DNA from: Escherichia coli
GTDB lineage: Bacteria > Pseudomonadota > Gammaproteobacteria > Enterobacterales > Enterobacteriaceae
Reading direction: 5' to 3' (one strand)
Assembly (NCBI RefSeq): GCF_003790525.1
Contig: NZ_CP033632.1
Length of the DNA stretch: 64,000 nt
Shown: positions 11,951-60,743 of the stretch, in pieces
Position numbering within the stretch: position 1 is the first letter of the stretch
Layout: every line of letters starts with the position of its first letter
Notes under the pieces: generated by a model
Seen by the model: only the letters and a program-made list of their open reading frames with translations
What the model was told of the DNA's origin: nothing
The model's database searches: none
Made by a program: the position numbers and the translations under genes

Positions 11951-14900
11951 CTAGGCGGGCAGATCCTCCTGGACCGGCTTCCTGCGGGTCACCAGTTTCC
12001 GTAGCGTCACGTAAAACACCGGCGTCAGGAACAGACCGAAGAGCGTCACGCCCAGCATCCCGGAGAACACCGTGATCCCGGTGACGCCGCGGACTTCCGC
12101 CCCCGCGCCGTGGCCGAGGATCAGCGGAATGGTCCCGGCGATAAAGGCGATGGAGGTCATCACGATCGGGCGCAGACGCAGGCGGCATGCCTCCAGCGCC
12201 GCTTCCATGATGCCTTTCCCCTGGATCTCCAGCTCGCGGGCAAACTCGACGATCAGAATGGCGTTTTTACAGGCCAGGCCCATCAGGACCACCAGACCCA
12301 CCTGCACGAAGACGTTGTTATCGCCCCCGGTCAGCCAGACGCCAAACAGCGCGGAGAGCATCGTCATCGGTACGATAAGGATCACCGCCAGCGGCAGGGT
12401 CCAGCTTTCATACAGCGCGGCCAGTACGAGGAATGCCAGCAGCACCGCCACCGGGAAGACGATCAGCGCCGTGTTGCCCTGGGTGGCCTGCTGGAAGCTG
12501 AGATCCGTCCACTCAATATTCATCCCATTCGGCAGGATCTGCTTCGACAGCTCTTCCAGATGCGTCATCGCCTGCGAAGAAGAGAGGACCCGCGGATCGG
12601 CATCGCCAATCAGGTCCGCCGCCGGATAACCGTTGTAGCGGATCACCGGATCCGGCCCGTAGGTGGTACTGATATTCACCATACTGCCGATCGGTACCAT
12701 TTCGCCCTGATTATTGCGGGTGCGCAGATTGGCGATATCTTCCACGCTCTCGCGGTATGGTCCGTCAGCCTGGGCCATCACGCGCCAGGTACGCCCGAAC
12801 TGGTTAAAGTCATTGACATAAGACGAGCCGAGATAGGTCTGCAGCGTACCGAACAGATCGGTTAGCGATACCCCCTGCGCTTTCGCCTTATCGCGATCGA
12901 CCTGCACGTCCAGCTGCGGCACGTTAGCCTGGTAAGTCGAGATCGGGAAGTGCATCCCCGGCGTCTGCATAATCGCCCCGGACATCGCATTCACCGCGCT
13001 TTGCAGCGCGCCATAGCCCAGCCCTCCGCGATCCTGGATGTACAGGGAGTAGCCGGAACCCTGACCCAGACCTAAAATCGGCGGCGGCAGGATGGAAAAG
13101 CCAAAGCCCTGCTGGATTTGCGCGATTTTGGCGTTGATCTCCGCGTTAATTTCCGCCGCCGTGTGTTTGCGCTGGTCGAACGGTTTCAGGCCAAAAAAGA
13201 CCGTCCCGGTATTCGGCGTGTTGGTGAACTGCAGCGCGTTAAGCCCCGGGAAAGCGACCGCATAGTCGACCCCTTCGGTATTCATCCCGATCTCGCTCAT
13301 TTTGCGGATCACCGCGTCGGTGCGCGCCAGCGACGACCCTTCCGGCATCTTCACGCCGCCAATGAGATACAGCTTATCCTGGGTGGGAATAAACCCGCCG
13401 GGGACGACTTTAAACATCACCCCAGCGGCGCAGAGCAGCAGCAGGTACACCGCAAACACTGCGCCACGGCGTCCAAGCGTTTTGCCTACCAGTCCCTGAT
13501 AGCCGTTCGAGCTGCGCAGGAAAAAGCGGTTAAACGGACGGAAAATCCAGCCAAACAGGCGATCGATCAGCCGGGTAGGGAGGTCTTTCTTCGCGCCGTG
13601 CGGCTTTAACAGCAGGGCCGCCAGCGCCGGGGAGAGCGTCAGCGAGTTGATGGCCGAGATCACCGTCGAGATGGCGATGGTCACCGCGAACTGTTTGTAG
13701 AACTGGCCGGTGACCCCGGAGAGAAACGCCATCGGCACGAACACCGCACACAGCACCAGCGCAATGGCGATAATCGGCCCGGAGACCTCACGCATCGCCT
13801 GATGCGCCGCGGCAAGCGGCGCAAGCCCCTCTTCGATATTACGCTCGACGTTCTCCACCACCACGATGGCGTCGTCCACCACGATACCGATAGCCAGTAC
13901 CAGCCCGAACAGGCTCAGGGTATTCAGCGAGAAGCCCAGCAGATAGAGAATGCTGAAGGTACCCACCACCGATACCGGCACAGCGATCAACGGGATAATC
14001 GACGCGCGCCAGGTCTGCAGGAACAGGATCACTACCAGCACCACCAGCACTACCGCCTCCAGCAGCGTCTGCACCACCGCGCGGATGGAGTCGCGGACGA
14101 AAACCGTCGGGTCGTACGGCGCCGCCCATTGCATATCTTCCGGGAAGCGGGTGGCCAGCTCGGCCATTTTGGCGCGTACCGCGTTCGACAGATCGATGGC
14201 GTTAGCGCCGGGTGACTGGAAGATACCGATCCCGACCGCATCCTTATTGTTGAGCTGGGAGCGCAGCGCATAGCTACCGGAACCCATCTCGATGCGCGCC
14301 ACGTCGCGCAGGCGGACCAGCGAGCCATCCTGCGCCGTTTTCAGAATGATATTGCCAAACTCTTCTTCGGTATGCAGACGGCCCTGGGCGTTAATGGAGA
14401 TCAGGAAATCGCTCTCCTGCGGCAGCGGCTCGGCGCCAAGCTGTCCGGCAGACACCTGGACGTTTTGCTCCTGCATCGCCGTCACCACATCCGAGGCCGT
14501 CAGACCGCGGGCAGCGACCTTATTGGGATCCAGCCAGACGCGCATCGCATATTCACCGGAGCCAAAAATCTGGATCTGGCCGACGCCGGGCAGGCGCGCC
14601 AGCTCATCCTTCACTTTCAGCGTGGCGTAGTTGCGCATATACAGCGAGTCGTACTTCCCGCCGGGGGAGAACAGATGCACCACCAGGGTCAGCGTCGGAG
14701 ACTGCTTCTGGGTGGTGATCCCCAGACGGCGTACATCCTCCGGCAGACGCGCTTCGGCCTGCGCGACGCGGTTCTGCACCTGAACCTGCGCCTGATCCGG
14801 GTCGGTACCCGGGCGGAAGGTGACGGTGGTGACCAGCACGCCGTCGGAGCCGGCGACCGATTTCATGTACATCATGTTTTCAACGCCGTTGATCGCTTCC

Positions 14901-15103
14901 TCCAGCGGCGTCGCCACGGTCTCGGCAATCACTTTCGGGTTGGCGCCGGGATACTCCGCGCGCACCTGGACGCTCGGCGGGACGACATCCGGATATTCGC
15001 TCACCGGCAGCAGTGGGATAGCGATTAACCCGGTGATAAAAATTAAAATCGACAGCACCGCGGCGAAAATCGGCCTGTCGATAAAAAAGCGGGAAAAGTC
15101 CAT
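11951..15103 (-). CDS. oqxB: RND efflux transporter OqxB, 1050 aa
   Basis: AcrB-like 1050-aa translation; paired with the adaptor gene. Confidence 0.9.
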   Translation of the reverse strand: MDFSRFFIDRPIFAAVLSILIFITGLIAIPLLPVSEYPDVVPPSVQVRAEYPGANPKVIAETVATPLEEAINGVENMMYMKSVAGSDGVLVTTVTFRPGTDPDQAQVQVQNRVAQAEARLPEDVRRLGITTQKQSPTLTLVVHLFSPGGKYDSLYMRNYATLKVKDELARLPGVGQIQIFGSGEYAMRVWLDPNKVAARGLTASDVVTAMQEQNVQVSAGQLGAEPLPQESDFLISINAQGRLHTEEEFGNIILKTAQDGSLVRLRDVARIEMGSGSYALRSQLNNKDAVGIGIFQSPGANAIDLSNAVRAKMAELATRFPEDMQWAAPYDPTVFVRDSIRAVVQTLLEAVVLVVLVVILFLQTWRASIIPLIAVPVSVVGTFSILYLLGFSLNTLSLFGLVLAIGIVVDDAIVVVENVERNIEEGLAPLAAAHQAMREVSGPIIAIALVLCAVFVPMAFLSGVTGQFYKQFAVTIAISTVISAINSLTLSPALAALLLKPHGAKKDLPTRLIDRLFGWIFRPFNRFFLRSSNGYQGLVGKTLGRRGAVFAVYLLLLCAAGVMFKVVPGGFIPTQDKLYLIGGVKMPEGSSLARTDAVIRKMSEIGMNTEGVDYAVAFPGLNALQFTNTPNTGTVFFGLKPFDQRKHTAAEINAEINAKIAQIQQGFGFSILPPPILGLGQGSGYSLYIQDRGGLGYGALQSAVNAMSGAIMQTPGMHFPISTYQANVPQLDVQVDRDKAKAQGVSLTDLFGTLQTYLGSSYVNDFNQFGRTWRVMAQADGPYRESVEDIANLRTRNNQGEMVPIGSMVNISTTYGPDPVIRYNGYPAADLIGDADPRVLSSSQAMTHLEELSKQILPNGMNIEWTDLSFQQATQGNTALIVFPVAVLLAFLVLAALYESWTLPLAVILIVPMTMLSALFGVWLTGGDNNVFVQVGLVVLMGLACKNAILIVEFARELEIQGKGIMEAALEACRLRLRPIVMTSIAFIAGTIPLILGHGAGAEVRGVTGITVFSGMLGVTLFGLFLTPVFYVTLRKLVTRRKPVQEDLPA

Positions 15104-15126
15104 GTCTTGGATTCTCTGATTAGGGA

Positions 15127-16302
15127 TCAGTTAAGGGTGGCGCTGGAGGTCATGGCAACGGTTTTGGCGTTAACCGGCATACCCGGCATAAACACTTTTT
15201 GTAAGCCGTCGACGATGACGCTATCCCCAGGATTCAACCCCTTCTGAACGATGCGTAAACCGTCTGCCAGCCGCCCTGGGGTAATGTCGCGGCGCTGTGC
15301 TTTACCATCTTTATCAACGATATAGACGTATTTACGATCCTGATCGGTCAGTACCGCTTTGTCGTCGATCAGCGTGGCTTTGAACTCTGCGCTGCCCGGC
15401 AGACGCACGCGGGCAAACAGCCCCGGCGTGAACAGACGCTGCGAGTTATCCAGCAGCGCACGCATGCGGATGGTGCCGGTACTCGGCGTTAACTGATTAT
15501 CGAGAAAATCCACTTTGCCCTGGTGGGGGTAACCCTCCTCGCCCACCAGGCCAATCTCCACCGGGAGCGCCTGATTATCGCTGGACGCGCCTTGCCCGCG
15601 GCGGGCGAGGTTTTGATAGTGGAGGTAGGTTGACTCGTCGACGTCAAAGTAGACGTACACCGTCTTTTGCGAGACCAGGGTGGTGAGCACGCTGGCGGTG
15701 TCGCCCGCGGTGACCAGGTTACCGCTGGTGATCAGCGCCCGGCTGGCGCGGCCGTCAATAGGGGCGGTCACTTTGGTGAAGTCGAGGTTAAGCTGCGCGG
15801 CATCCACCGCCGCCTGCGCGGCGCGAATGTCGGCCTGCGCCTGAACCGCGGCTGACCGGCGCTGCTCCCACTCTTCACGGGAGACGAGGTTGGTATGGAC
15901 TAATTTATCGGTGCGGTTCGCCTCGCTTTGCGCGAGGCTGGCCTGCGTTTTGGCTCTTGCCAACGCCGCCTGCGCCTGCTCCAGCGCGGCGCGATAGGTT
16001 CTGTCATCTATCGTGAACAGCACCTGGCCCTTTTTCACCTCCTGGCCGTCAGTGTAATTCACTTTATCAATGTATCCCGAGACGCGAGGGCGAAGCTGAA
16101 CGCTCTCCACCGCTTCAATGCGACCGTTAAAACTATCCCACTGACTGATCGACTTCACCAGCACCTTAGCGGCGCTGACCGTCGGGGCGGGAGGCGCAGC
16201 ATTCTGTGCGACGCTGTCGTCGCAGCCGACGAGCAGAAAGGAGAGCATCATCGCGCCGAGCGCGGTCAGGTGAATGTTTCCCCAGGTTTTTTGCAGGCTC
16301 AT
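15127..16302 (-). CDS. oqxA: RND periplasmic adaptor OqxA, 391 aa
   Basis: Membrane-fusion-protein translation upstream of oqxB. Confidence 0.9.
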   Translation of the reverse strand: MSLQKTWGNIHLTALGAMMLSFLLVGCDDSVAQNAAPPAPTVSAAKVLVKSISQWDSFNGRIEAVESVQLRPRVSGYIDKVNYTDGQEVKKGQVLFTIDDRTYRAALEQAQAALARAKTQASLAQSEANRTDKLVHTNLVSREEWEQRRSAAVQAQADIRAAQAAVDAAQLNLDFTKVTAPIDGRASRALITSGNLVTAGDTASVLTTLVSQKTVYVYFDVDESTYLHYQNLARRGQGASSDNQALPVEIGLVGEEGYPHQGKVDFLDNQLTPSTGTIRMRALLDNSQRLFTPGLFARVRLPGSAEFKATLIDDKAVLTDQDRKYVYIVDKDGKAQRRDITPGRLADGLRIVQKGLNPGDSVIVDGLQKVFMPGMPVNAKTVAMTSSATLN

Positions 16303-33074: not shown

Positions 33075-33730
33075 CTACTCTAACGACAGCATACTTACAG
33101 CAATTGGTATTTTTTGCAGGCGAGGCTACTTGTCATCCTGACGCAAACTATTTATTGGAATTTGAGAGGTTAGCGTCACCCGGTATCGTTCTGGAACTGG
33201 CCCAACAGGTGCTGGCCTTGAGACAAAAAGAGCAACATGAAAGTAATACGTGTAGATTGAATTTTGAGCAGTGGCTGGAACAGCAACGCGGGAAAATCGA
33301 TGTGGACTGTGGTTGTGTGTCCACTGAAACATTCATGCACTGGCTGCGGGTAGCTTACGAGGCTGGCAACTATCCGGATATTCCGGATAGTTCGGTGCCA
33401 GCGCCAGGAAAGGGCGTCACCGGTGAACGTATCCGCATTAAGCCGCATGTTTATCGCGAACTGGTTAACCGTCTCCACGATACAGCGATCAAGTGTGCTG
33501 GCACTCAGCAATTACGAGAAAGAATTAGCCGTGTTTTGGGCGACGTTATTACGCCATATCATCATAAACAAGCCGAGAAAAGCGGTCTGGAAAGGTGTCA
33601 TCTTGAGGCAGCATTAAACATTAAGCCGGGGCATACGCTAGGCATTATTGATGCACTGTTGGTTCATAAGATGGCCAGGGCTTTATTGTCGTTGGTGGAC
33701 GCTGGTGATACAAGCGAGGGTGAAGTATGA
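33056..33730 (+). CDS. Hypothetical protein, 224 aa
   Basis: ORF overlapping the upstream gene. Confidence 0.5.
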   Translation: MAQKEMTTLTTAYLQQLVFFAGEATCHPDANYLLEFERLASPGIVLELAQQVLALRQKEQHESNTCRLNFEQWLEQQRGKIDVDCGCVSTETFMHWLRVAYEAGNYPDIPDSSVPAPGKGVTGERIRIKPHVYRELVNRLHDTAIKCAGTQQLRERISRVLGDVITPYHHKQAEKSGLERCHLEAALNIKPGHTLGIIDALLVHKMARALLSLVDAGDTSEGEV

Positions 33731-34089
33731 GAGTTGCAGATCACATCAAACACCTTGAAAGAATTATCGAAAACGGTGAACTCTTAAGAGATCAGATGAG
33801 ACGCACGGCAGAAGCCAGGGAGGCGATAATCCGCAGTCAGGCTGGTAAATTAAAGCAATTGTCAGAGATTAACACGCTATACAAGAACAGACGTAACCGG
33901 GCGGTGATGCGGCTTCAGAAAGCACGTAATGAAATTAAATTGGTGGAGGCAAAACTGAAAAAACAGATCCAGCGTTACGATCAGCAAGATGCTTTTTATG
34001 CCGCCATCAAGGCGGCTGCTAATGAAATAGGCATCTGGAAGTTGCTGGTGGAGAAAGCAAAGACGAAGTTAAATGCCAACGAAAGCTGA
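33727..34089 (+). CDS. Hypothetical coiled-coil protein, 120 aa; last gene of the + strand operon
   Basis: ATGA coupling to the upstream gene. Confidence 0.5.
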   Translation: MRVADHIKHLERIIENGELLRDQMRRTAEAREAIIRSQAGKLKQLSEINTLYKNRRNRAVMRLQKARNEIKLVEAKLKKQIQRYDQQDAFYAAIKAAANEIGIWKLLVEKAKTKLNANES

Positions 34090-34164
34090 ACTACAGGTGC
34101 CCACCAGCACATACAGAAAATGATTGTTTCCACATCAAGGAGATTTTAATGTTTCACTGAAACA

Positions 34165-34302
34165 TTAAGTAAGCCAGTGCATAATTCCATTTTTTACTGA
34201 CCTTAAAAGCAAAATCAAAACGATGATGAGGATAATAGCCAGAATCTGGCTAATAATAGGCGCATCTAAAAATGCACTCAGGAACTGAAAAAAAGCGTTC
34301 AT
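34165..34302 (-). CDS. Small hydrophobic peptide, 45 aa (possible membrane-active toxin or holin-like peptide)
   Basis: Manual translation MNAFFQFLSAFLDAPIISQILAIILIIVLILLLRSVKNGIMHWLT; below the ORF-track threshold. Confidence 0.3.
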   Translation of the reverse strand: MNAFFQFLSAFLDAPIISQILAIILIIVLILLLRSVKNGIMHWLT

Positions 34303-35164
34303 TCAGGTGGTTCCTTGTCAAATGTAAAGGTGCACTTGCTCACGTTGACGTAGAAACCCAACCCCTATATAGTTGGATTCGGTGAATGAAAGTCGTTAAC
34401 GTGAGCTTACGGCACATGTTTTCGGAAAAACATCAGGGAACGGCTAATTCCTTGATGCGGGTGGGGTCTGTAATGCAGACCCTATCTATTAACGTCATGA
34501 TTGCATCTCAAATTTTCTCCTTATCTTCAATTAATCTACATTCATTTCATCTGTTAGCCACCACAATATGTAGAAAATGGCCCTCTTGCAAGTGCATAAC
34601 TTTGTGGATAACTCAGGAAGGAAAAAGTGGCTTTCGCGCACCTTCGGTCAGACAAGGTGTCCGGGAAAGTCAACGCAAAGAAAAAAATTGTTAAAAATAA
34701 CGTTTGTTGGAATTGTATATTTTTATCCCCTTCAATGGTTAGCATTCTATTAACATCTTTTTTTAGAGACAGAAAAACATATCGTAACAACATATATACA
34801 GTGTTAAGCGGCGAGTATTATCCTGCGGTGGGAATTCTGGGCGCTGTTAGATTCGACTTTCTCAGCAGGATTACATCGTCAACTTGCGACGTTGCCGTAT
34901 GACTTTCGTGTAATAGGTGACAATGATGCGGCTAGTGAGTTACTTGTGAAGTTTTTCGGAAAAGGTTTTGTGGCCTCGGATCTTGATGAGCTACAGCAAC
35001 ATGAAGTGTCTAATTTGATTTTTAGCCATAGCCAATAAGCCTCCCTCCTCCATCAAGGCCACAATTTGTGACCTTAAACAATTTGTTTTCTGCTTTTTCT
35101 TATTTGAGAAAATAACGTTGTTGACAGCTAATAGGCTCGTTGTTGTTATACATGCCTGTATAGA

Positions 35165-35521
35165 TTATGACCGTAAATTATTAGCGGATTTTAAGCCATA
35201 TTCACCGTTGTAGAAATTACTCATGTTCCATTCATTAGGAAGTTCTTTTCTGTCCAATGTATAGTGGCGCACGATATAACGATCTTCATCTTCTTCGATG
35301 GACAGGCGGACATAGCCAATGTGAATCACCGATACGGGCGGTGTTCGTATTGCATAGATGTCGCGGAGATATACCGGCAGCTCGACAAATGCATCAGGTG
35401 CATCTGTGATGCTCGTTTTTTCACAGTATTCATATAACGCATCGTTGATATCGTTAAGAGATTCATGATCGTATATTTCCAGGTAATTACCGCGATCGCG
35501 ATGGTACTCGATTTTAGCCAT
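35165..35521 (-). CDS. Hypothetical protein, 118 aa (second gene of a two-gene operon)
   Basis: Start codon immediately follows the stop of the upstream gene. Confidence 0.55.
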   Translation of the reverse strand: MAKIEYHRDRGNYLEIYDHESLNDINDALYEYCEKTSITDAPDAFVELPVYLRDIYAIRTPPVSVIHIGYVRLSIEEDEDRYIVRHYTLDRKELPNEWNMSNFYNGEYGLKSANNLRS

Positions 35522-36106
35522 TCAAAATCCCCTGTTATCGTTTTGCATTTCTCTAATCCGGTTCAGAACTACTTCATGCTGGACTTGGATAGCGGCTTTT
35601 TCGTTTTCAAGCCGGGCAATAGACATCTCTAATTCTTTGCTGTACCAGGCGAGCTGGGCCAGGTTCATCCGGTTGTGGTCGAGAGTTGGAGACACTTCGA
35701 CGCGATCCCTTTCTTCCTGCTTTAATGAGAAGAGATTTATCTCATCCCTTGAGGAAAATTCAGCAACAATTTCTTGTTGATGATCCGGTCGCTGCGGCAT
35801 CCTCGCCAGTATAAATGGCGGTTCTTTTGAAAACATGAATGTCGGTTCAGACCGTGTTTTTACCCAGCTTGCCTGCTGTCTTTCGGCAAGTTCACAGGCT
35901 TCATCATAGTTATCTGCCAAACAAAGCACGGATGGACGGTCCCACGCCCCACCATTCAGACAATAAACTACAATTTTCCCGTCAGGTTGTGTAACCCCAT
36001 ATGGATGGTCCCACCAGGCGTCCAGCTGAGCTTTAGAGCGTTTCTCGTTAGGAGTGCAGTCAAAATTTTTGGGCAATACAGGATCGAGAGGAATGCGGGC
36101 AGGCAT
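35522..36106 (-). CDS. Hypothetical protein, 194 aa, C-terminal coiled coil (first gene of the operon)
   Basis: AAGGA Shine-Dalgarno 9 bp upstream; divergent from humD. Confidence 0.55.
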   Translation of the reverse strand: MPARIPLDPVLPKNFDCTPNEKRSKAQLDAWWDHPYGVTQPDGKIVVYCLNGGAWDRPSVLCLADNYDEACELAERQQASWVKTRSEPTFMFSKEPPFILARMPQRPDHQQEIVAEFSSRDEINLFSLKQEERDRVEVSPTLDHNRMNLAQLAWYSKELEMSIARLENEKAAIQVQHEVVLNRIREMQNDNRGF

Positions 36107-49790: not shown

Positions 49791-51606
49791 GTTTTCCGGG
49801 CATCCGTAAGGGCCGAAACTTCCCGTCTTCCAGTCTGCGGCTCTGCCGCCAGACGTAATCGCCGGTTAGGTTGATGTGCTCCCAGCCCAGCGGCGACAGG
49901 AATTGCAGCAGCTCGCCGTCCACCGGCTTGCCGGCCTCGACCAACCCCTGGGTGGCGCGTTCCAGGTACACCGTGTTCCACAGCACGATAGCCGCCGTCA
50001 CCAGGTTGAGGCCGCTGGCCCGGTAGCGCTGCTGCTCGAAGCTCCGATCCCTGATTTCCCCAAGGCGGTTGAAGAACACCGCCCTGGCCAGCGAGTTGCG
50101 CGCCTCACCTTTGTTCAGGCCGGCATGCACGCGGCGGAGCAGTTCAACACTTTGCAGCCAGTCCAGGATGAACAGCGTGCGCTCGATCCGGCCCAGCTCG
50201 CGCAGGGCCACGGCCAGTCCGTTCTGGCGCGGGTAGCTGCCGAGCTTGCGCAGCATCAGCGAGGCGGTGACGGTGCCCTGCTTGATCGAGCTGGCCAGGC
50301 GCAGGATGTCGTCCCAGTGGGCACGCACGTGCTTGATGTTCAGGGTGCCGCCGATCAGCGGGCGCAACGTCGGGTAGGCTTGCACGCCCTGCGGCACGTA
50401 CAGCTTGGTTTCGCCGAGGTCGCGGATGCGCGGCGCGAAGCGGAAGCCTAGCAGGTGCATCAGGGCAAAGACGTGATCGGTGAAGCCGGCCGTGTCGGTG
50501 TAGTGCTCCTCGATCCGCAGGTCGGACTCGTGGTACAGCAGGCCGTCGAGCACATAGGTGGAATCGCGGACGCCGACATTCACCACGCGGGTGCTGAACG
50601 GCGCGTACTGGTCGGAGATATGGGTATAGAACAGCCGTCCCGGCTCGCTACCGTACTTCGGGTTGACGTGCCCGGTGCTCTCGCCCCGGCCCCCCGCGCG
50701 GAAGCGCTGGCCATCGGAGGATGAGGTCGTGCCGTCGCCCCAGTGGGCGGCAAAGGCGTGGCGATACTGGTGGTTGACCAGCTCGGCCAAGGCCGCCGAA
50801 TAGGTTTCGTCGCGGATGTGCCAGGCTTGCAGCCAGGACAGCTTGGCGTAGGTCAGGCCGGGGCTCGACTCGGCCATCTTGGTCAGCCCGAGGTTGATCG
50901 CATCACCGAGGATTGCGGACAGCAGCAACGTCCTGTCTTTGGCCTCGGCCCCGTCCTTCAAGTGGGTGAAGTGGCGGCTGAAGCCCGTCCAGTCGTCCAC
51001 GTCCATCAGCAGTTCGGTGATCTTGATGCGCGGCAGTAACTGGCTGGTTTGGTCGATCAGCGCCTGCGCCCGATCCGGCACCGCCGCATCCAGCGGGGTG
51101 ATTTTCAGCCCTGACTCGGTGAGGATGGCATCGGGCAGCTCGTTGTCCTTGGCCAGGCGGGTGACGGTGGCCAACTGCTCGTCCAGCAGCTGCAAACGCT
51201 CTTCCAGGTACTGGTCGCTGTTCGGGTTGATCGCCAGGGGCAGGGCCTGCTCGCGCTTGAGTGCGGCGAACTTCTCGGCCGGCAGCAGGTAGTCGTCGAA
51301 GTCGCGGAACTGCCGCGAGCCCTTGACCCAGATGTCGCCGGAGCGCAGGGCGTTCTTCAGCTCGGACAGGGCGCAGATTTCGTAGAATTTCCGGTCGAGG
51401 CCTTCCGGGGTGATCACCAGCGGCTTCCAGCGCGGCTTGATGAAGGCCGTGGGTGCATCGGCCGGCACCTTGCGCAGGTTGTCGGCGTTCATCTCACGCA
51501 GGGTCTGCACGGCTGCCAGCACGCCTTGCGCGGCCGGCCCGTGCTGTTCCCCAACTTTTCGCTCGGCGAAGAGTATGAACATGCGCCGCCGGCGACGAAT
51601 CGCCAA
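49786..51606 (-). pseudogene. tnpA: Tn3-family transposase (Tn1721-type), C-terminal about 600 codons only
   Basis: 606-aa ORF ending next to the IR; full-length proteins are near 990 aa. Confidence 0.85.
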
Positions 51607-51649
51607 ATCTCACCGTATCTCCCGAGCGGACGATTTCGCACCGGTCTGC

Positions 51650-51933
51650 CCGTCGAAGGGCTTGCGATCGAACGGGGCGACCTTTTCTATGCATGTCCGC
51701 GAGCCAGCGTCTTTTATGGCACGGCGCTCGACGCCGACCTTCGGACGCGCGGCGTAAGCACGCTTGTCATGGCCGGGATAAGCACCACCGGCGTTGTTCT
51801 TTCAAGCGTCGCCTGGGCTAGTGATGCGGACTACGACGTGCGTTTGGTCCAGGACTGCTGCTACGACCCGGATCGGGATGCCCACGAAGCTCTGTTGCGT
51901 TCCGGGTTCGGCGGACGTGTACAGGTCGTGTAA
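51650..51933 (+). pseudogene. Isochorismatase-family hydrolase C-terminal fragment
   Basis: Tail ...LVMAGISTTGVVLSSVAWASDADYDVRLVQDCCYDPDRDAHEALLRSGFGGRVQVV. Confidence 0.55.
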
Positions 51934-52070
51934 TTTTCGGGCCTCGCATGATCGCGGCCATAGCCGCAGGTGGATTGGTGCGAGGCAGGGCCAGTCCAAG
52001 TCAGGGTGCGGTCATCGCGGCGCCTGCAACTCTCAAAAACCCATCGCCGTAGCGGAGGTCTTGTAATCGC

Positions 52071-52955
52071 ATGTCATTACGCACGCCCGATTTATTGTTC
52101 ACAGCGATAGCACCTGCCATTTGGGGCAGCACCTACATTGTCACCACCCAATACCTGCCGAACTTCTCACCGATGACGGTCGCGATGCTGCGGGCGTTGC
52201 CGGCGGGTTTATTGCTCGTGATGATCGTCCGACAGATTCCAACGGGAATCTGGTGGATGCGCATCTTCATCCTCGGCGCACTTAATATTTCGCTATTCTG
52301 GAGCTTGTTGTTTATTTCGGTCTACCGCCTGCCGGGCGGGGTCGCGGCGACGGTAGGCGCTGTGCAGCCGCTGATGGTCGTGTTCATCTCTGCCGCTCTG
52401 CTAGGTAGCCCGATACGATTGATGGCGGTCCTGGGGGCTATTTGCGGAACTGCGGGCGTGGCGCTGTTGGTGTTGACACCAAACGCAGCGCTAGATCCTG
52501 TCGGCGTCGCAGCGGGCCTGGCGGGGGCGGTTTCCATGGCGTTCGGAACCGTGCTGACCCGCAAGTGGCAACCTCCCGTGCCTCTGCTCACCTTTACCGC
52601 CTGGCAACTGGCGGCCGGAGGACTTCTGCTCGTTCCAGTAGCTTTAGTGTTTGATCCGCCAATCCCGATGCCTACAGGAACCAATGTTCTCGGCCTGGCG
52701 TGGCTCGGCCTGATCGGAGCGGGTTTAACCTACTTCCTTTGGTTCCGGGGGATCTCGCGACTCGAACCTACAGTTGTTTCCTTACTGGGCTTTCTCAGCC
52801 CGGGGACCGCCGTGTTGCTAGGATGGTTGTTCTTGGATCAGACGCTGAGTGCGCTTCAAATCATCGGCGTCCTGCTCGTGATCGGGAGTATCTGGCTGGG
52901 CCAACGTTCCAACCGCACTCCTAGGGCGCGTATAGCTTGCCGGAAGTCGCCTTGA
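52071..52955 (+). CDS. pecM: EamA-family transporter PecM
   Basis: Ten-helix membrane protein beside tetA(A), as in Tn1721. Confidence 0.8.
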   Translation: MSLRTPDLLFTAIAPAIWGSTYIVTTQYLPNFSPMTVAMLRALPAGLLLVMIVRQIPTGIWWMRIFILGALNISLFWSLLFISVYRLPGGVAATVGAVQPLMVVFISAALLGSPIRLMAVLGAICGTAGVALLVLTPNAALDPVGVAAGLAGAVSMAFGTVLTRKWQPPVPLLTFTAWQLAAGGLLLVPVALVFDPPIPMPTGTNVLGLAWLGLIGAGLTYFLWFRGISRLEPTVVSLLGFLSPGTAVLLGWLFLDQTLSALQIIGVLLVIGSIWLGQRSNRTPRARIACRKSP

Positions 52956-52986
52956 CCCGCATGGCATAGGCCTATCGTTTCCACGA

Positions 52987-54186
52987 TCAGCGATCGGCTC
53001 GTTGCCCTGCGCCGCTCCAAAGCCCGCGACGCAGCGCCGGCAGGCAGAGCAAGTAGAGGGCAGCGCCTGCAATCCATGCCCACCCGTTCCACGTTGTTAT
53101 AGAAGCCGCATAGATCGCCGTGAAGAGGAGGGGTCCGACGATCGAGGTCAGGCTGGTGAGCGCCGCCAGTGAGCCTTGCAGCTGCCCCTGACGTTCCTCA
53201 TCCACCTGCCTGGACAACATTGCTTGCAGCGCCGGCATTCCGATGCCACCCGAAGCAAGCAGGACCATGATCGGGAACGCCATCCATCCCCGTGTCGCGA
53301 AGGCAAGCAGGATGTAGCCTGTGCCGTCGGCAATCATTCCGAGCATGAGTGCCCGCCTTTCGCCGAGCCGGGCGGCTACAGGGCCGGTGATCATTGCCTG
53401 GGCGAGTGAATGCAGAATGCCAAATGCGGCAAGCGAAATGCCGATCGTGGTCGCGTCCCAGTGAAAGCGATCCTCGCCGAAAATGACCCAAAGCGCGGCC
53501 GGCACCTGTCCGACAAGTTGCATGATGAAGAAGACCGCCATCAGGGCGGCGACGACGGTCATGCCCCGGGCCCACCGGAACGAAGCGAGCGGGTTGAGAG
53601 CCTCCCGGCGTAACGGCCGGCGTTCGCCTTTGTGCGACTCCGGCAAAAGGAAACAGCCCGTCAGGAAATTGAGGCCGTTCAAGGCTGCCGCGGCGAAGAA
53701 CGGAGCGTGGGGGGAGAAACCGCCCATCAGCCCACCGAGCACAGGTCCCGCGACCATCCCGAACCCGAAACAGGCGCTCATGAAGCCGAAGTGCCGCGCG
53801 CGCTCATCGCCATCAGTGATATCGGCAATATAAGCGCCGGCTACCGCCCCAGTCGCCCCGGTGATGCCGGCCACGATCCGCCCGATATAGAGAACCCAAA
53901 GGAAAGGCGCCGTCGCCATGATGGCGTAGTCGACAGCAGCGCCGGCCAGCGAGACGAGCAAGACCGGCCGCCGCCCGAAACGATCCGACAGCGCGCCCAG
54001 CACAGGTGCGCAGGCAAATTGCATCAACGCATACAGCGCCAGCAGAATGCCATAGTGGGCGGTGACGTCGTTCGAGTGAACCAGATCGCGCAGGAGGCCC
54101 GGCAGCACCGGCATAATCAGGCCGATGCCGACAGCGTCGAGCGCGACAGTGCTCAGAATTACGATCAGGGGTCTGTTGGGTTTCAC
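52987..54186 (-). CDS. tet(A): Tetracycline efflux protein TetA(A), 399 aa (GTG start)
   Basis: Translation from KPNRPLIVILSTVALDAVGIGLIMPVLPGLLRDLVHSNDVTAHYG... matches TetA(A). Confidence 0.95.
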   Translation of the reverse strand: MKPNRPLIVILSTVALDAVGIGLIMPVLPGLLRDLVHSNDVTAHYGILLALYALMQFACAPVLGALSDRFGRRPVLLVSLAGAAVDYAIMATAPFLWVLYIGRIVAGITGATGAVAGAYIADITDGDERARHFGFMSACFGFGMVAGPVLGGLMGGFSPHAPFFAAAALNGLNFLTGCFLLPESHKGERRPLRREALNPLASFRWARGMTVVAALMAVFFIMQLVGQVPAALWVIFGEDRFHWDATTIGISLAAFGILHSLAQAMITGPVAARLGERRALMLGMIADGTGYILLAFATRGWMAFPIMVLLASGGIGMPALQAMLSRQVDEERQGQLQGSLAALTSLTSIVGPLLFTAIYAASITTWNGWAWIAGAALYLLCLPALRRGLWSGAGQRADR

Positions 54187-54291
54187 GTCTGGCCTCCGGA
54201 CCAGCCTCCGCTGGTCCGATTGAACGCGCGGATTCTTTATCACTGATAAGTTGGTGGACATATTATGTTTATCAGTGATAAAGTGTCAAGC

Positions 54292-54942
54292 ATGACAAAG
54301 TTGCAGCCGAATACAGTGATCCGTGCCGCCCTGGACCTGTTGAACGAGGTCGGCGTAGACGGTCTGACGACACGCAAACTGGCGGAACGGTTGGGGGTTC
54401 AGCAGCCGGCGCTTTACTGGCACTTCAGGAACAAGCGGGCGCTGCTCGACGCACTGGCCGAAGCCATGCTGGCGGAGAATCATACGCATTCGGTGCCGAG
54501 AGCCGACGACGACTGGCGCTCATTTCTGATCGGGAATGCCCGCAGCTTCAGGCAGGCGCTGCTCGCCTACCGCGATGGCGCGCGCATCCATGCCGGCACG
54601 CGACCGGGCGCACCGCAGATGGAAACGGCCGACGCGCAGCTTCGCTTCCTCTGCGAGGCGGGTTTTTCGGCCGGGGACGCCGTCAATGCGCTGATGACAA
54701 TCAGCTACTTCACTGTTGGGGCCGTGCTTGAGGAGCAGGCCGGCGACAGCGATGCCGGCGAGCGCGGCGGCACCGTTGAACAGGCTCCGCTCTCGCCGCT
54801 GTTGCGGGCCGCGATAGACGCCTTCGACGAAGCCGGTCCGGACGCAGCGTTCGAGCAGGGACTCGCGGTGATTGTCGATGGATTGGCGAAAAGGAGGCTC
54901 GTTGTCAGGAACGTTGAAGGACCGAGAAAGGGTGACGATTGA
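54292..54942 (+). CDS. tetR(A): Tetracycline repressor TetR(A), 216 aa
   Basis: Translation MTKLQPNTVIRAALDLLNEVGVDGLTTRKLAERLGVQQPALYWHF... Confidence 0.95.
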   Translation: MTKLQPNTVIRAALDLLNEVGVDGLTTRKLAERLGVQQPALYWHFRNKRALLDALAEAMLAENHTHSVPRADDDWRSFLIGNARSFRQALLAYRDGARIHAGTRPGAPQMETADAQLRFLCEAGFSAGDAVNALMTISYFTVGAVLEEQAGDSDAGERGGTVEQAPLSPLLRAAIDAFDEAGPDAAFEQGLAVIVDGLAKRRLVVRNVEGPRKGDD

Positions 54943-55026
54943 TCAGGACCGCTGCCGGAGCGCAACCCACTCACTACAGCAGAGCCATGTAGACAACATC
55001 CCCTCCCCCTTTCCACCGCGTCAGAC

Positions 55027-55054
55027 GCCCGTAGCAGCCCGCTACGGGCTTTTT
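55027..55054 (+). terminator. Rho-independent terminator downstream of tetR(A)
   Basis: Stem gcccgtagc/gctacgggc followed by ttttt. Confidence 0.65.
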
Positions 55055-55289
55055 CATGCCCTGCCCTAGCGTCCAAGCCTCACGGCCGCGCTCGGCCTCT
55101 CTGGCGGCCTTCTGGCGCTCCTGCTGCGGCGTCCGCTCGTGGGCCGTGGCGCGGGTCCGCGCGCCGGCCTCGTGCGCCTGGCGCTCGCGGGCGAGGTCCA
55201 GGGCGGCCGTCTTCACGTTCTGCCTTGCGCAGATGAGATAGATCTAGCGTGGACTCAAGGCTCTCGCGAATGGCTCGCGTTGGAAACTT

Positions 55290-55960
55290 TCATTGACACT
55301 TGAGGGGCACCGCAGGGAAATTCTCGTCCTTGCGAGAACCGGCTATGTCGTGCTGCGCATCGAGCCTGCGCCCTTGGCTTGTCTCGCCCCTCTCCGCGTC
55401 GCTACGGGGCTTCCAGCGCCTTTCCGACGCTCACCGGGCTGGTTGCCCTCGCCGCTGGGCTGGCGGCCGTCTATGGCCCTGCAAACGCGCCAGAAACGCC
55501 GTCGAAGCCGTGTGCGAGACACCGCGGCCGCCGGCGTTGTGGATACCTCGCGGAAAACTTGGCCCTCACTGACAGATGAGGGGCGCGATCCTTGACACTT
55601 GAGGGGCAGAGTGCTGACAGATGAGGGGCGCACCTATTGACATTTGAGGGGCTGTCCACAGGCAGAAAATCCAGCATTTGCAAGGGTTTCCGCCCGTTTT
55701 TCGGCCACCGCTAACCTGTCTTTTAACCTGCTTTTAAACCAATATTTATAAACCTTGTTTTTAACCAGGGCTGCGCCCTGTGCGCGTGACCGCGCACGCC
55801 GAAGGGGGGTGCCCCCCCTTCTCGAACCCTCCCGGCCCGCTAACGCGGGCCTCCCATCCCCCCAGGGGCTGCGCCCCTCGGCCGCGAACGGCCTCACCCC
55901 AAAAATGGCAGCGCCTACGGCGCTGACTCTTTCGTTGACCAGGCGCAAGCGCCTGGAAAT
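55290..55960. other. oriV: IncP-1 (RK2-like) oriV relic with iterons, A+T-rich and GC-rich tracts
   Basis: 17-bp iterons tgaca(c/g)(a/t)tgaggggc at 55294, 55570, 55593, 55615, 55638, followed by the AT-rich and GC-rich oriV segments as recalled. Confidence 0.8.
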
Positions 55961-55969
55961 GCTCAATTA

Positions 55970-56007
55970 GGGGGCACCTCAGAAAACGGAAAATAAAGCA
56001 CGCTAAG
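55970..56007. repeat. Tn21-subgroup 38-bp terminal IR at the mer end
   Basis: gggggcacctcagaaaacggaaaataaagcacgctaag. Confidence 0.85.
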
Positions 56008-56437
56008 GCATAGCTGACCTTGCCAGGCCTGCTTCGCCCTGTAGTGACGCGATCAACGGGCAGGAAACATTCCCCTTTCGTGCATGGCAGGCGCACACGA
56101 GTTCAGACAGCACGGTTTCCATGCGCGCCAAGTCGGCCATCTTCTCGCGCACGTCCTTGAGCTTGTGTTCGGCCAGGCTGCTGGCCTCCTCGCAGTGGGT
56201 GCCATCGTCGAGCCGCAACAGCTCGGCAATCTCGTCCAGACTGAACCCCAGCCGCTGTGCCGATTTCACGAATTTCACCCGAACCACGTCCGCCTCCCCA
56301 TAGCGGCGGATGCTGCCGTAAGGCTTGTCCGGTTCCCGCAACAGGCCCTTGCGCTGATAGAAGCGGATTGTCTCCACGTTGACCCCGGCCGCCTTGGCAA
56401 AAACGCCAATGGTCAGGTTTTCCAAATTATTTTCCAT
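56003..56437 (-). CDS. merR: MerR regulator, 144 aa
   Basis: Translation from [33 protein letters not shown]... Confidence 0.92.
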
Positions 56438-56508
56438 ATCGCTTGACTCCGTACATGAGTACGGAAGTAAGGTTACGCTATCCAATCCAAATTCAAAAGG
56501 GCCAACGT

Positions 56509-56859
56509 ATGTCTGAACCACAAAACGGGCGCGGTGCGCTCTTCGCCGGCGGGCTGGCCGCCATTCTTGCATCGACCTGCTGCCTGGGGCCGCTAGTACT
56601 GGTCGCCCTGGGCTTCTCCGGTGCTTGGATCGGCAACCTGACGGTGCTGGAACCCTATCGACCGTTGTTCATCGGCGCGGCGCTAGTGGCGCTGTTCTTC
56701 GCCTGGAAGCGGATTTACCGGCCCGTGCAGGCATGCAAGCCAGGTGAGGTCTGCGCGATTCCGCAGGTGCGCGCCACCTACAAGCTGATTTTCTGGATCG
56801 TGGCCGTGCTGGTCCTGGTCGCGCTTGGATTTCCCTATGTCGTTCCATTTTTCTATTAA
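56509..56859 (+). CDS. merT: MerT, 116 aa
   Basis: Translation [42 protein letters not shown]... Confidence 0.92.
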
Positions 56860-56872
56860 CCAGGAGTTCATC

Positions 56873-57148
56873 ATGAAGAAACTGTTTGCCTCCCTTGCCC
56901 TCGCCGCCACTGTTGCCCCGGTGTGGGCCGCTACCCAGACCGTCACGCTAGCGGTTCCCGGCATGACTTGCGCCGCCTGCCCGATCACAGTCAAGAAAGC
57001 GCTCTCCAAGGTCGAAGGCGTGAGCAAGGTCGATGTGGGCTTCGAGAAGCGCGAGGCCGTCGTCACTTTTGACGACACCAAGGCCAGCGTACAGAAGCTG
57101 ACCAAGGCCACCGCAGACGCCGGCTATCCGTCCAGCGTCAAGCAGTGA
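56873..57148 (+). CDS. merP: MerP, 91 aa
   Basis: Signal peptide plus GMTCAAC metal-binding motif. Confidence 0.92.
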   Translation: MKKLFASLALAATVAPVWAATQTVTLAVPGMTCAACPITVKKALSKVEGVSKVDVGFEKREAVVTFDDTKASVQKLTKATADAGYPSSVKQ

Positions 57149-57183
57149 GCCAGCAAGCCAACGACAACAGCGAGAGCCGCTTC

Positions 57184-57606: not shown

Positions 57607-59352
<1,746 letters not shown>

Positions 59353-59369
59353 GGACAAGGAGGTGTGCG

Positions 59370-59732: not shown

Positions 59733-59965
59733 ACGCCCCTGACAAACTGCCGCCCGAGACGCGCCAACCCGTTTCCGGCTACCTGTGGGGTGCGCTGGCC
59801 GTGTTGACCTGCCCCTGCCATCTGCCGATTCTCGCCGCCGTGCTGGCCGGGACGACCGCCGGTGCCTTCCTTGGCGAGCATTGGGGTGTTGCCGCGCTCG
59901 CGCTGACCGGCTTGTTCGTTCTGGCCGTAACGCGGCTGCTGCGCGCCTTCCGGGGCGGATCATGA
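59729..59965 (+). CDS. merE: MerE, 78 aa (GTG start)
   Basis: Translation [47 protein letters not shown]... Confidence 0.85.
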
Positions 59966-60669: not shown

Positions 60670-60743
60670 CAGTTCAATATCAGAAGTGATCTGCACCAAT
60701 CTCGACTATGCTCAATACTCGTGTGCACCAAAGCGAGGTGAGC

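What the first reader, a model, noticed from the sequence alone, without database searches (positions are those of the whole stretch)
34303..35164. About 860 bp without a credible protein-coding gene inside an otherwise gene-dense phage region
Flanking phage DNA is packed with overlapping genes, yet this stretch has only low-complexity ORFs lacking ribosome-binding sites. It contains a 7-bp-stem hairpin (gggtctg taatg cagaccc, 34464..34482), a DnaA-box-like tgtggataa near 34597, and a TTGACA -35-like hexamer at 35123. A structured non-coding RNA, an origin or a regulatory region is plausible.
Basis: seen in the sequence. Interest (0 to 1): 0.5.

Follow-up and report, generated by a model that had tools for sequence, protein, structure and literature searches.

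The report
Mosaic regulatory gap in P1-like phage
The 860-bp "gene-free" stretch of this P1/P7-type phage-plasmid is a patchwork: a strongly conserved non-coding control region, a promoter with DnaA boxes copied from the E. coli nrdA gene, and dead remnants of a humD promoter and a primase gene. It is mostly explained, with one moderately interesting conserved piece.

Summary
It is not one element but a recombination mosaic in a known hypervariable zone of P1-like phage-plasmids.

Left part: a ~190-bp non-coding block (34338-34525) is 90-91% identical between P1-type and SSU5-type phage-plasmids, and ~98% in its core. The neighbouring genes humD and hot are 85% and 87.5%.

Next comes a leftward nrdA-type promoter with two DnaA boxes. 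Window 34573-34672 matches the E. coli chromosome at 99/100. This promoter faces the block and an under-annotated 45-aa membrane-peptide ORF (34165-34302, minus strand). The three always occur together, with or without hot, so they form a cassette (34099-34613).

Right part (34702-35164): a decayed humD promoter copy, the last ~67 codons of a primase gene, and a 3' flank. P7 carries IS903 here.

My inferred mechanism is a DnaA-responsive leader plus cis-antisense control of the peptide gene. It is untested. An origin is not supported, and Rfam finds nothing.

The parts
34099..34164 (-). 3' flank of the small ORF. It is the left end of the cassette shared with SSU5-type phage-plasmids.
   Evidence: Homology to L009 begins at 34099, just after the pmgV stop at 34089. 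It is 65-67% identical with indels.
34165..34302 (-). 45-aa hydrophobic peptide ORF (MNAFFQFLSAFLDAPIISQILAIILIIVLILLLRSVKNGIMHWLT). SD AAGGA at 34316..34312. Not annotated in P1 or P7.
   Evidence: It has the same length, start and stop in P1-type and SSU5-type despite 24% nucleotide divergence, with no indels, and hydrophobic character and SD kept. PGAP calls it WP_000123562.1. No PHROG or NCBIfam family matches.
34338..34525 (.). Conserved non-coding block. Core 34339-34425 has 2 differences in 87 nt between the deep lineages.
   Evidence: 90-91% identical to L009, against humD 85%, hot 87.5%, the small ORF 76-78% and flanks 46-71%. No conserved ORF. No second copy in the window.
34345..34373 (+). 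Sigma-70-type promoter TTGACG-17-TATAGT (P1 'PupfN'). It is flanked by the inverted repeat 34338-34350 / 34394-34406.
   Evidence: Best promoter match in the region, 10/12. Both hexamers are invariant across lineages; only spacer positions 34364/34365 vary. P1 annotation. Inverted repeat I5.
34398..34487 (+). Three predicted hairpins of a + strand RNA: H1 34398-34420, H2 34431-34457, H3 34459-34487.
   Evidence: MFE -47.4 kcal/mol, z = -4.09, against z = -2.42 for the minus strand. H3 has a compensatory pair 34467/34479 plus two G.U to A-U changes. The three substitutions inside H2 proper (34442, 34444, 34445) fall in its loop. Three pairs are broken overall.
34563..34591 (-). nrdA-type promoter reading leftward: -35 TTGCAA 34591..34586, 17-bp spacer, -10 TATTGT 34568..34563.
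   Evidence: M95666 annotates it as an 'nrdA-like promoter'. The -35, the spacing and a TAnnnT -10 are retained in P7-type, P1, IncY, SSU5-type, Cyrano-type and E. coli while neighbouring bases diverge.
34591..34611 (-). Two DnaA boxes: TTATCCACA 34611..34603 (perfect) and TTATGCACT 34599..34591 (8/9).
   Evidence: Annotated in M95666 and NC_005856. These are the two boxes abutting the -35 of the E. coli nrdAB promoter; DnaA control of that promoter is reviewed in PMC8203912.
34573..34701 (.). Copy of the E. coli nrdA-ypaB intergenic and regulatory DNA. It includes the ypaB-like ORF start (34577, + strand; P7 upf91.6, P1 upfO) and verbatim HusR-site sequences at 34614-34629 and 34649-34664.
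   Evidence: 5425 of 5426 E. coli genomes match. 34573-34672 is 99/100 to an O157 chromosome, and from ~34673 it follows the Cyrano type. YpaB comparison. HusR sequences from PMC12844172. The ORF has no coding signature.
34702..34826 (+). Decayed copy of a humD/umuD promoter region. It is AT-rich, half of the LexA box is left (~34796-34804), an RBS remnant is present, and the start codon is deleted.
   Evidence: It aligns to the Cyrano region immediately upstream of umuD with two ~11-13-nt deletions.
34827..35038 (+). 3' remnant of a Toprim/DNA-primase-like gene: the last ~67 codons, in frame from 34838, stop at 35036-35038.
   Evidence: 90.6% identical to PhiR41_1, where the 174-aa gene is intact. 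phrog_17952 E = 9e-39; phrog_849 positions 261-334 of 435.
34902..34910 (.). Site where P7 carries IS903 (9-bp target duplication).
   Evidence: P7 aligns to window 34000-34910 and 34902-35600 on either side of the IS.
35039..35164 (.). Non-coding tail. 35039-35091 is the sequence downstream of the primase gene (PhiR41 type). 35092-35164 is the 3' flank of convergent upf93.6 and contains TTGACA at 35122-35127.
   Evidence: It has no homolog outside P7-type elements.

Best explanation
The gap is a recombination mosaic inside the hypervariable pmgT-humD zone of P1-like phage-plasmids. It contains no conserved protein-coding gene. It has a functional left part and a decayed right part.

Left part. 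Window 34099-34613 is a self-contained accessory cassette that reads leftward. It starts with a promoter captured from the E. coli nrdA gene, with two DnaA boxes abutting the -35 (34563-34611). This promoter would start a transcript near 34556. The transcript crosses a ~250-nt leader whose central ~190 nt (34338-34525) is under strong purifying selection. It ends in a 45-aa membrane-peptide ORF (34302..34165).

Inside the leader, a fully conserved near-consensus promoter (34345-34373) fires in the opposite direction.

I infer that peptide expression is tied to the host's DnaA and replication status through the nrdA-type promoter. I also infer that it is held in check by convergent transcription, antisense RNA, or both, in the manner of a type I toxin-antitoxin or a plasmid antisense-control module.

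Right part. Window 34702-35164 is non-functional debris: a humD promoter copy that lost half its LexA box and its start codon, the last third of a primase gene, and 3' flank. P7 tolerates an IS903 there.

Shown: the mosaic map, the lack of conserved ORFs, the conservation gradient, the host origin of the DnaA-box promoter, and the fact that the cassette co-occurs independently of hot. Inferred: that both promoters fire, that the RNA structure matters, and what the peptide does.
For: Identity of the locus and its annotation. Mosaic map by BLAST and alignment.

No conserved ORF in 34303-34826. Primase remnant. IS903 insertion in P7.

Conservation gradient between the P1 and SSU5-type lineages. 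The block is 90.4%, and its core has 2 differences in 87 nt. humD is 85.1%, with 45 of its 58 differences at third codon positions. hot is 87.5%, the small ORF 77.5% and the flanks 46-65%.

The nrdA-type -35, spacer and -10 plus the DnaA boxes are retained in six lineages. There is 99/100 identity to the E. coli chromosome. DnaA control of nrdAB is documented (PMC8203912).

The + strand RNA fold has z = -4.09 and one compensatory pair, and the three substitutions inside H2 proper fall in its loop.

The small ORF is intact in both deep lineages and PGAP calls it.

Cassette logic. All 228 PLSDB carriers have the ORF and block together. 92 or more of them are hot-less P7-type. hot occurs in ~600 records, mostly without the cassette. 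Two P1-like plasmids with hot lack the cassette entirely.

P1 upfN and upfO are non-essential for lytic growth (PMC10695390).
Against: There is no transcript evidence; no P1 transcriptome was found, and the paper on hot expression is not held.

Only two deep lineages exist, so covariation rests on one compensatory pair, with three predicted pairs broken. Substitutions are not depleted in paired positions.

The small ORF shows no third-position bias (12/8/13; 8 synonymous against 19 non-synonymous codon changes), so its coding status rests on ORF integrity, the SD and hydrophobicity. It matches no toxin family and is almost absent from protein databases.

Co-occurrence of the block with the small ORF could simply reflect adjacency.

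The overall count of promoter-like matches in the region is at chance level.

In P1 and SSU5-type elements the rightward promoter could simply serve upfO-hot.
Confidence: 0.6

Rival explanations
1. The conserved block is the promoter and 5' leader of a rightward operon (upfO/ypaB-like plus hot, the Pol III theta homolog). In this hot-less P7-type element it is an orphan that has not yet decayed. The leftward nrdA-type promoter and the small ORF are incidental.
For: In P1 and SSU5-type elements the block is followed by upfO and hot on the same strand, and homology is continuous through hot. The + strand folds better than the minus strand. Hot is reported to be expressed in lysogens as well as lytically, which needs a sigma-70 promoter in addition to the late promoter LPhot (Chikova & Schaaper 2007, as summarised in PMC7556043). 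P7-type copies are nearly identical to each other, so they may simply be young.
Against: hot occurs in hundreds of plasmids without the block, with matches starting inside the hot CDS. P1-like plasmids carry hot with entirely different upstream DNA. The block persists with the small ORF in 92 or more hot-less plasmids. The region between the block and hot (the upfO remainder) is poorly conserved, at 53-70%. A leader more conserved than the gene it serves would still need a function of its own.
Confidence: 0.2
2. The block and the DnaA boxes act at the DNA level: as an auxiliary origin, a priming site, a DnaA-titrating site, or an operator cluster for an unknown DNA-binding protein.
For: There are two high-affinity-type DnaA boxes. 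The surroundings are AT-rich, at 38-41% GC. An inverted repeat GCTCACGTTGACG/CGTTAACGTGAGC brackets the promoter. Conservation in the core is of primary sequence rather than of pairing. The neighbours are replication and repair genes (hot, humD, a primase remnant).
Against: There are no iterons or direct-repeat families and no adjacent initiator gene. The boxes and the -35 are inherited as a unit from the nrdA promoter. The segment is absent from otherwise complete P1-like plasmids. The homologous P1 ORFs upfN and upfO are dispensable for lytic growth. From my own knowledge, the known P1 origins oriR and oriL lie elsewhere.
Confidence: 0.1
3. Nothing here is functional. The whole stretch is hitch-hiking recombination debris, and the apparent conservation reflects recent horizontal spread of one segment.
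For: The zone is one of eight hypervariable regions of P1-like phage-plasmids (PMC9603915). The right part is demonstrably debris. P7 tolerates IS903. It is non-essential in P1.
Against: Within one contiguous homologous segment, P1 against SSU5-type identity ranges from 46-65% in the flanks to 98% in the block core, and exceeds that of humD and hot, which are under purifying selection. Recent transfer would give uniformly high identity. The promoter hexamers are kept in six lineages while adjacent bases vary.
Confidence: 0.07
4. One or more of the annotated small ORFs (P7 upf91.3/91.4/91.6/91.7; P1 upfM/N/O; the YpaB-like ORF) is a real protein-coding gene.
For: They are annotated in P1 and P7. 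upfM has its own PHROG. E. coli annotates YpaB, and ypaB mRNA was measured (PMC12844172).
Against: Start codons, frames and stops are not conserved. There is no codon-position bias. There are no family hits beyond self-annotation. The conserved part of the ypaB-like ORF coincides exactly with the -35 and the DnaA boxes.
Confidence: 0.03

Closest known systems
Phage P1 upfM-upfN-upfO region with its 'nrdA-like promoter' and DnaA box (GenBank M95666; NC_005856)
   Same: It is directly homologous: 93% over window 34000-34710. It has the same two DnaA boxes, the same leftward promoter, the same predicted PupfN promoter, the same hairpin and the same unannotated 45-aa minus-strand ORF.
   Different: P1 continues into LPhot and hot. 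This element has lost hot. In its place it has a longer, 99% E. coli-like nrdA/ypaB patch, then a dead humD promoter copy and a primase remnant, as in P7 and SJ46. The P1 annotation treats the stretch as three hypothetical genes; the comparison here argues they are not genes.
E. coli nrdAB promoter / nrdA-ypaB intergenic region
   Same: The -35, two DnaA boxes, HusR-site sequences and ~130 bp of upstream DNA are shared, with 99/100 identity over 34573-34672.
   Different: Homology decays at the -10 and is absent downstream: there is no nrdA leader and no nrdA. The promoter faces phage DNA instead.
Type I toxin-antitoxin and plasmid antisense-control cassettes (for example hok/sok)
   Same: There is a small hydrophobic peptide ORF, a long conserved leader, and a strong conserved promoter on the opposite strand inside the leader. 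Carriage is on low-copy plasmid-prophages of two families.
   Different: There is no sequence similarity to any known toxin family. The antisense RNA would not cover the peptide's ribosome-binding site. Toxicity, transcripts and a post-segregational effect are all untested.
humD/umuD upstream regions of SSU5-like phage-plasmids (Cyrano, PhiR41_1, pEc2-51408)
   Same: They share the DnaA-box segment, the AT-rich stretch, the LexA box and RBS (Cyrano type), the primase-like gene (PhiR41 type) and the whole cassette plus hot (pEc2-51408).
   Different: In the window these pieces are fused and truncated. The functional LexA box and humD lie 1.4 kb further right.

Membership tests
E. coli nrdAB-type DnaA-regulated promoter (homolog) | Two DnaA boxes immediately upstream of and abutting the -35 | tested here: met
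   TTATCCACA-AAG-TTATGCACT-TGCAA on the minus strand, 34611..34586, identical to E. coli.
E. coli nrdAB-type DnaA-regulated promoter (homolog) | Sequence homology to the chromosomal locus | tested here: met
   5425 of 5426 E. coli genomes match; 99/100 over 34573-34672.
E. coli nrdAB-type DnaA-regulated promoter (homolog) | -35 / 17-bp spacer / -10 retained | tested here: met
   TTGCAA-17-TATTGT. A TAnnnT -10 is kept in all six lineages. This is a sequence-level test only.
E. coli nrdAB-type DnaA-regulated promoter (homolog) | DnaA-dependent transcription in vivo | not testable with these tools
   This needs promoter fusions or DnaA perturbation. Regulation of the E. coli original is documented in PMC8203912.
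E. coli nrdAB-type DnaA-regulated promoter (homolog) | nrdA leader and nrdA downstream | tested here: not met
   Homology ends around the -10, and the downstream DNA is phage-specific.
Type I toxin-antitoxin system | Small (<60 aa) hydrophobic peptide ORF | tested here: met
   45 aa with a ~20-residue hydrophobic core. The ORF is intact in both deep lineages.
Type I toxin-antitoxin system | Antisense or overlapping sRNA gene with its own promoter | tested here: inconclusive
   A conserved 10/12 promoter lies on the opposite strand inside the leader, and the RNA fold has z = -4.1. There is no transcript evidence and no clear terminator.
Type I toxin-antitoxin system | Similarity to a known toxin family (Hok, Ldr, TisB, Ibs, ShoB and others) | tested here: not met
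   No NCBIfam or PHROG hit. The only Rfam hit is a chance-level BsrG match at 15 bits against a gathering score of 55.
Type I toxin-antitoxin system | Toxicity of the peptide and neutralisation by the RNA | not testable with these tools
   This needs expression experiments.
DnaA-dependent plasmid or phage replication origin | DnaA boxes | tested here: met
   Two boxes, but they are inherited with the nrdA promoter.
DnaA-dependent plasmid or phage replication origin | Iterons or direct repeats and an adjacent initiator gene | tested here: not met
   There is no repeat family beyond chance two-copy matches, and no rep gene among the neighbouring ORFs.
DnaA-dependent plasmid or phage replication origin | Required for replication or maintenance | tested here: not met
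   The segment is absent from complete P1-like plasmids. P1 upfN and upfO knock-downs are non-essential for lytic growth (PMC10695390). This is indirect evidence.
Described ncRNA family (Rfam 15) | Covariance-model match at or near the gathering score | tested here: not met
   The best hits are 14-16 bits against gathering scores of 40-55, with E values of 1.3-7.7.
Protein-coding genes upfM/N/O (P1) and upf91.3-91.7 (P7), YpaB | ORF with conserved start, frame and stop, and excess third-position change | tested here: not met
Phage DNA primase (Toprim) gene | Full-length Toprim-containing ORF | tested here: not met
   Only the last ~67 codons remain. They match positions 261-334 of the 435-position phrog_849 and all of the 68-position phrog_17952. 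The 174-aa gene is intact in PhiR41_1. It is therefore a pseudogene remnant.

The most novel reading that the evidence does not exclude
Window 34099-34613 is an unrecognised, mobile, DnaA-sensing type-I-toxin-antitoxin-like cassette shared by two unrelated families of plasmid-prophages (P1-like and SSU5-like). A promoter stolen from the host's ribonucleotide-reductase gene reports the host's DnaA and replication status. It drives a 45-aa membrane peptide through a conserved leader. A constitutive cis-antisense RNA from the conserved internal promoter keeps the peptide off. The cassette would thus link plasmid-prophage maintenance, or an abortive or induction decision, to host replication stress.
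Probability: 0.2. Interest if true: 0.65.

Novelty: new member of a known kind. Interest (0 to 1): 0.38.

Why it matters
P1 is a reference phage, and this stretch is still annotated as a string of hypothetical "upf" genes.

The comparison replaces those genes with three things: a small conserved non-coding control element, an overlooked 45-aa membrane peptide, and a host-derived DnaA-box promoter. The rest is shown to be gene debris.

If the cassette works as inferred, it is an example of a mobile element wiring a captured host cell-cycle promoter to its own small-peptide gene. It would also add a candidate antisense-controlled module to phage-plasmids that spread resistance genes.

If not, the result is still useful for annotation. 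It removes several phantom genes. It also documents near-identical homology with the host chromosome (99/100) that can seed phage-chromosome recombination.

Tried and rejected
Rfam at a permissive threshold gave only chance-level hits.

Origin reading: rejected, because there are no iterons or rep gene and the segment is dispensable.

TTGACA at 35122 as a promoter: rejected. It has a poor -10, no conservation outside P7-type elements, and it points into the end of a convergent gene.

Minus-strand mini-ORFs in the leader: rejected as genes. These are MQS* after a strong AAGGAG, a 21-codon ORF from 34498 and a 25-codon ORF from 34417. The first is ATG-TAA in L009. The second has 8 non-synonymous against 1 synonymous nucleotide changes. 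The third has no SD (codon changes read from those alignments).

A hok-like 5'/3' fold-back (inverted repeat 34130-34141 / 34449-34460): rejected, because the 3' arm is not conserved in L009.

The AT-rich hairpin 34146-34168 as a terminator: not conserved and has no U-run.

H2 read on the minus strand followed by UUUUU as an attenuator or terminator: left open. The U-run is kept in P7-type and SSU5-type but interrupted in P1 (UUGUU).

The hot-leader explanation was down-weighted because hot and the block are separable.

The peptide homology search found 2 hits only.

An exact-motif scan of viral contigs returned 53 loci but only three lineages, so there is no extra covariation power.

The Lobocka 2004 and Chikova & Schaaper 2007 papers are not held.
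Full report
**Where we are.** The downstream ORFs are HumD, Phd and Doc, and the upstream ORF is PmgV. Megablast shows that window 33700-35600 is 100% identical to several "P1" records and 99.6% identical to P7 and SJ46. P1 itself matches only the left half. The finding therefore lies in a P7-type P1-like phage-plasmid, between pmgV (33727-34089, +) and the convergent upf93.6 and lxr-like genes (35165-36106, minus). This pmgT-humD stretch is one of eight hypervariable regions of P1-like phage-plasmids (PMC9603915).

**Observation.** The hairpin (34464-34482), the DnaA box (TGTGGATAA, 34603-34611) and the TTGACA (35122-35127) are all present.

- The perfect DnaA box occurs 4 times in the window against 0.28 expected.
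- A 7-bp perfect hairpin is not unusual by itself: 33% of shuffles have at least one.
- 34090-35164 is the fourth-largest stretch of the window without an ORF of at least 110 aa. The finding region is 40% GC, and the local backbone is 38-51% GC.
- Rfam gives nothing above chance.

**Are the annotated small ORFs genes?** P7 annotates upf91.3, 91.4, 91.6 and 91.7 here, and P1 annotates upfM, upfN and upfO. About 30 plasmids carry an ~81%-identical version of the left half. These are SSU5-like phage-plasmids, for example pEc2-51408 (L009), where the segment sits between a type I R-M gene and hot-umuD. Aligned against them, the ORFs do not hold up:

- The window's ATG at 34386 is AAG in other lineages.
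- A 1-nt indel (~34428) and a 17-nt insertion (~34525) break the frames.
- The ypaB-like ORF (34577-34753; P7 upf91.6, P1 upfO) ends at codon 35, 46, 48 or 59 depending on lineage, and its differences are evenly spread over codon positions.

I conclude that none of them is a conserved gene.

**The right part is debris.**

- Window 34827-35091 is 90.6% identical to phage PhiR41_1, where it forms the 3' end of an intact 174-aa Toprim/primase-like gene plus its downstream spacer.
- The window keeps only the last ~67 codons, in frame from 34838, with the stop at 35036-35038. They match phrog_17952 (E = 9e-39) and positions 261-334 of the 435-position primase family phrog_849.
- Window 34702-34826 aligns to the DNA immediately upstream of umuD in phage Cyrano. 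One ~11-nt deletion removes half of the LexA box, and another removes the start codon.
- P7 carries IS903 at 34902-34910, with a 9-bp duplication.
- 35092-35164, which contains the TTGACA, is 3' flank of convergent upf93.6. It is found only in P7-type elements, and the promoter scan does not call it.

**The DnaA boxes come from the host.**

- M95666 and NC_005856 already annotate an "nrdA-like promoter" and a DnaA box here.
- A 141-nt query matched 5425 of 5426 complete E. coli genomes at ypaB, immediately upstream of nrdA. YpaB and the window ORF share their first 33 residues almost exactly.
- The window copy is chimeric. It is P1-type up to 34572. It matches an O157 chromosome at 99/100 over 34573-34672. 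From ~34673 it follows the Cyrano type. This suggests repeated recombination through this shared segment, including with the chromosome.
- The two HusR(YnfL) site sequences reported for the ypaB/nrdA intergenic region are present verbatim at 34614-34629 and 34649-34664 (PMC12844172).
- Read on the minus strand, the arrangement is TTATCCACA-AAG-TTATGCAC-TTGCAA-17 bp-TATTGT.
- The -35, the spacing and a TAnnnT -10 are kept in P7-type, P1, IncY, SSU5-type and Cyrano-type elements and in E. coli, while the bases around them diverge.
- In E. coli, DnaA-ATP and DnaA-ADP act through these boxes to repress or activate nrdAB (PMC8203912).

**A conserved non-coding block.** Between the P1 and SSU5-type lineages, identity varies sharply along one contiguous homologous segment:

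| Segment | Identity |
|---|---|
| 3' flank of the small ORF | 65% |
| Small minus-strand ORF | 77.5% |
| ORF's upstream 35 nt | 63% |
| Block 34338-34525 | 90.4% |
| -10 side of the nrdA-type promoter | 46% |
| -35 plus DnaA boxes | 90% |
| Remainder of upfO | 70% |
| hot | 87.5% |
| humD | 85.1% |

- 45 of the 58 humD differences are at third codon positions, so humD is under purifying selection.
- The core of the block, 34339-34425, has only 2 differences in 87 nt.
- A non-coding piece that is better conserved than neighbouring genes under purifying selection is itself under selection.
- The block contains the best sigma-70 match of the region, TTGACG-17-TATAGT (34345-34373, + strand; P1's predicted PupfN). 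Both hexamers are invariant across lineages. It is bracketed by a 13-nt inverted repeat.

**RNA structure.**

- A + strand RNA (34377-34530) folds at -47.4 kcal/mol with z = -4.09, and no shuffle out of 200 does as well. It forms three hairpins: H1 (34398-34420), H2 (34431-34457, 10 bp) and H3 (34459-34487, 13 bp with four G.U pairs).
- The minus strand folds less exceptionally, with z = -2.42.
- Across lineages, H3 has one compensatory pair (34467/34479, U-A to C-G) and two G.U to A-U changes. The three substitutions inside H2 proper fall in its loop. Three predicted pairs are broken, including H2's terminal pair.
- With only two deep lineages this is suggestive, not proof. An exact-motif scan of viral contigs gave 53 loci but the same three lineages. 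PLSDB holds nothing more diverged.

**What the block belongs to.**

- Just left of the finding lies a 45-aa ORF on the minus strand (34302..34165) with an SD (AAGGA, 34316..34312). It has a hydrophobic core followed by basic residues.
- It keeps its length, start, stop, SD and hydrophobic character in both deep lineages despite 24% nucleotide divergence and no indels. PGAP calls it in an IncY plasmid.
- Its substitutions show no third-position excess, and it matches no known family.
- All 228 PLSDB carriers have this ORF and the block together. At least 92 of them are hot-less P7-type.
- By contrast, hot occurs in ~600 records, mostly without the block. P1-like plasmids pTX376-2 and p1303_95 have hot but nothing of 34099-34613.
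- The unit shared among P1-type, P7-type and SSU5-type elements runs from the DnaA boxes to ~66 nt past the ORF's stop. That is exactly one leftward transcription unit.

**Mechanism (inferred).** The captured nrdA-type promoter would start a leftward transcript near 34556. The transcript crosses the conserved leader and encodes the 45-aa membrane peptide. The conserved internal promoter fires rightward from about 34380, producing a structured RNA antisense to that leader. In P1 and SSU5-type elements it possibly also feeds upfO-hot. Convergent transcription, antisense pairing, or both, would gate peptide expression, with the DnaA boxes coupling it to host replication status.

This resembles type I toxin-antitoxin and plasmid antisense-control cassettes in design. 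It is not a member of any known family.

My confidence levels are:
- About 0.85 for the structural reading (mosaic, no genes, a conserved regulatory block, a host-derived promoter, debris on the right).
- About 0.35 for the specific antisense-gated, DnaA-responsive peptide mechanism.
- The overall 0.6 reflects the composite.

**Rivals.**
- A hot leader, now orphaned. This is weakened because hot and the block are separable.
- A DNA-level element or origin. There are no iterons or rep gene, and the segment is dispensable.
- Pure debris. This is contradicted by the conservation gradient.
- Real small proteins. This is contradicted by non-conserved frames.

P1 upfN, upfO and hot are non-essential for lytic growth (PMC10695390), which is consistent with an accessory cassette.

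**Limits.** There are no expression data, and no P1 transcriptome paper was found. Two key papers are not held. Statements about the positions of the known P1 origins, and about the content of Chikova & Schaaper 2007 beyond the summary in PMC7556043, rest on my own knowledge.

Noticed in passing
window 12001-16000 and 48001-64000: GC content is 57-64% here, against 43-50% in the P1-like backbone. These are probably cargo (transposon or resistance) insertions in the phage-plasmid.
   Followed up: no
window 4400-6600: This 2-kb stretch has no ORF of at least 110 aa and holds two perfect DnaA boxes (4809, 4848). Its ends match IS26 sequence, and the interior is absent from the phage collection. 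It may be a foreign replicon or origin fragment.
   Followed up: partly
window 34165-34302 (minus strand): A 45-aa hydrophobic peptide ORF is conserved in P1-like and SSU5-like phage-plasmids. It is not annotated in P1 or P7, PGAP calls it only in some plasmids (WP_000123562.1), and it is nearly absent from protein databases.
   Followed up: yes
L005 (phage Cyrano) 2390-2530; same in L064: In Cyrano-type elements the same nrdA-type promoter with DnaA boxes is followed ~80 nt downstream by a canonical bidirectional terminator (GCCCAG...CTGGGC plus a T-run). This would make a short leftward RNA of unrelated sequence.
   Followed up: partly
L004 (PhiR41_1) 2779-2807 vs window 35529-35557: PhiR41_1 retains a 29-nt remnant of the lxr 3' end between its primase-like gene and umuD. 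This implies deletion of an upf93.6-lxr segment there, so the humD-upstream zone is a chain of deletion and recombination scars.
   Followed up: partly
window 35165-36106 (minus strand): upf93.6 (118 aa, phrog_5797, function unknown) and an Lxr-like 194-aa protein replace P1's hot-lxr arrangement. Their function is unknown, and they presumably respond to LexA through the box upstream of humD.
   Followed up: no
window 34573-34672: There is 99/100 identity to the E. coli chromosome within a phage-plasmid. It is a ready substrate for homologous recombination between plasmid-prophage and chromosome at the essential nrdA promoter.
   Followed up: partly
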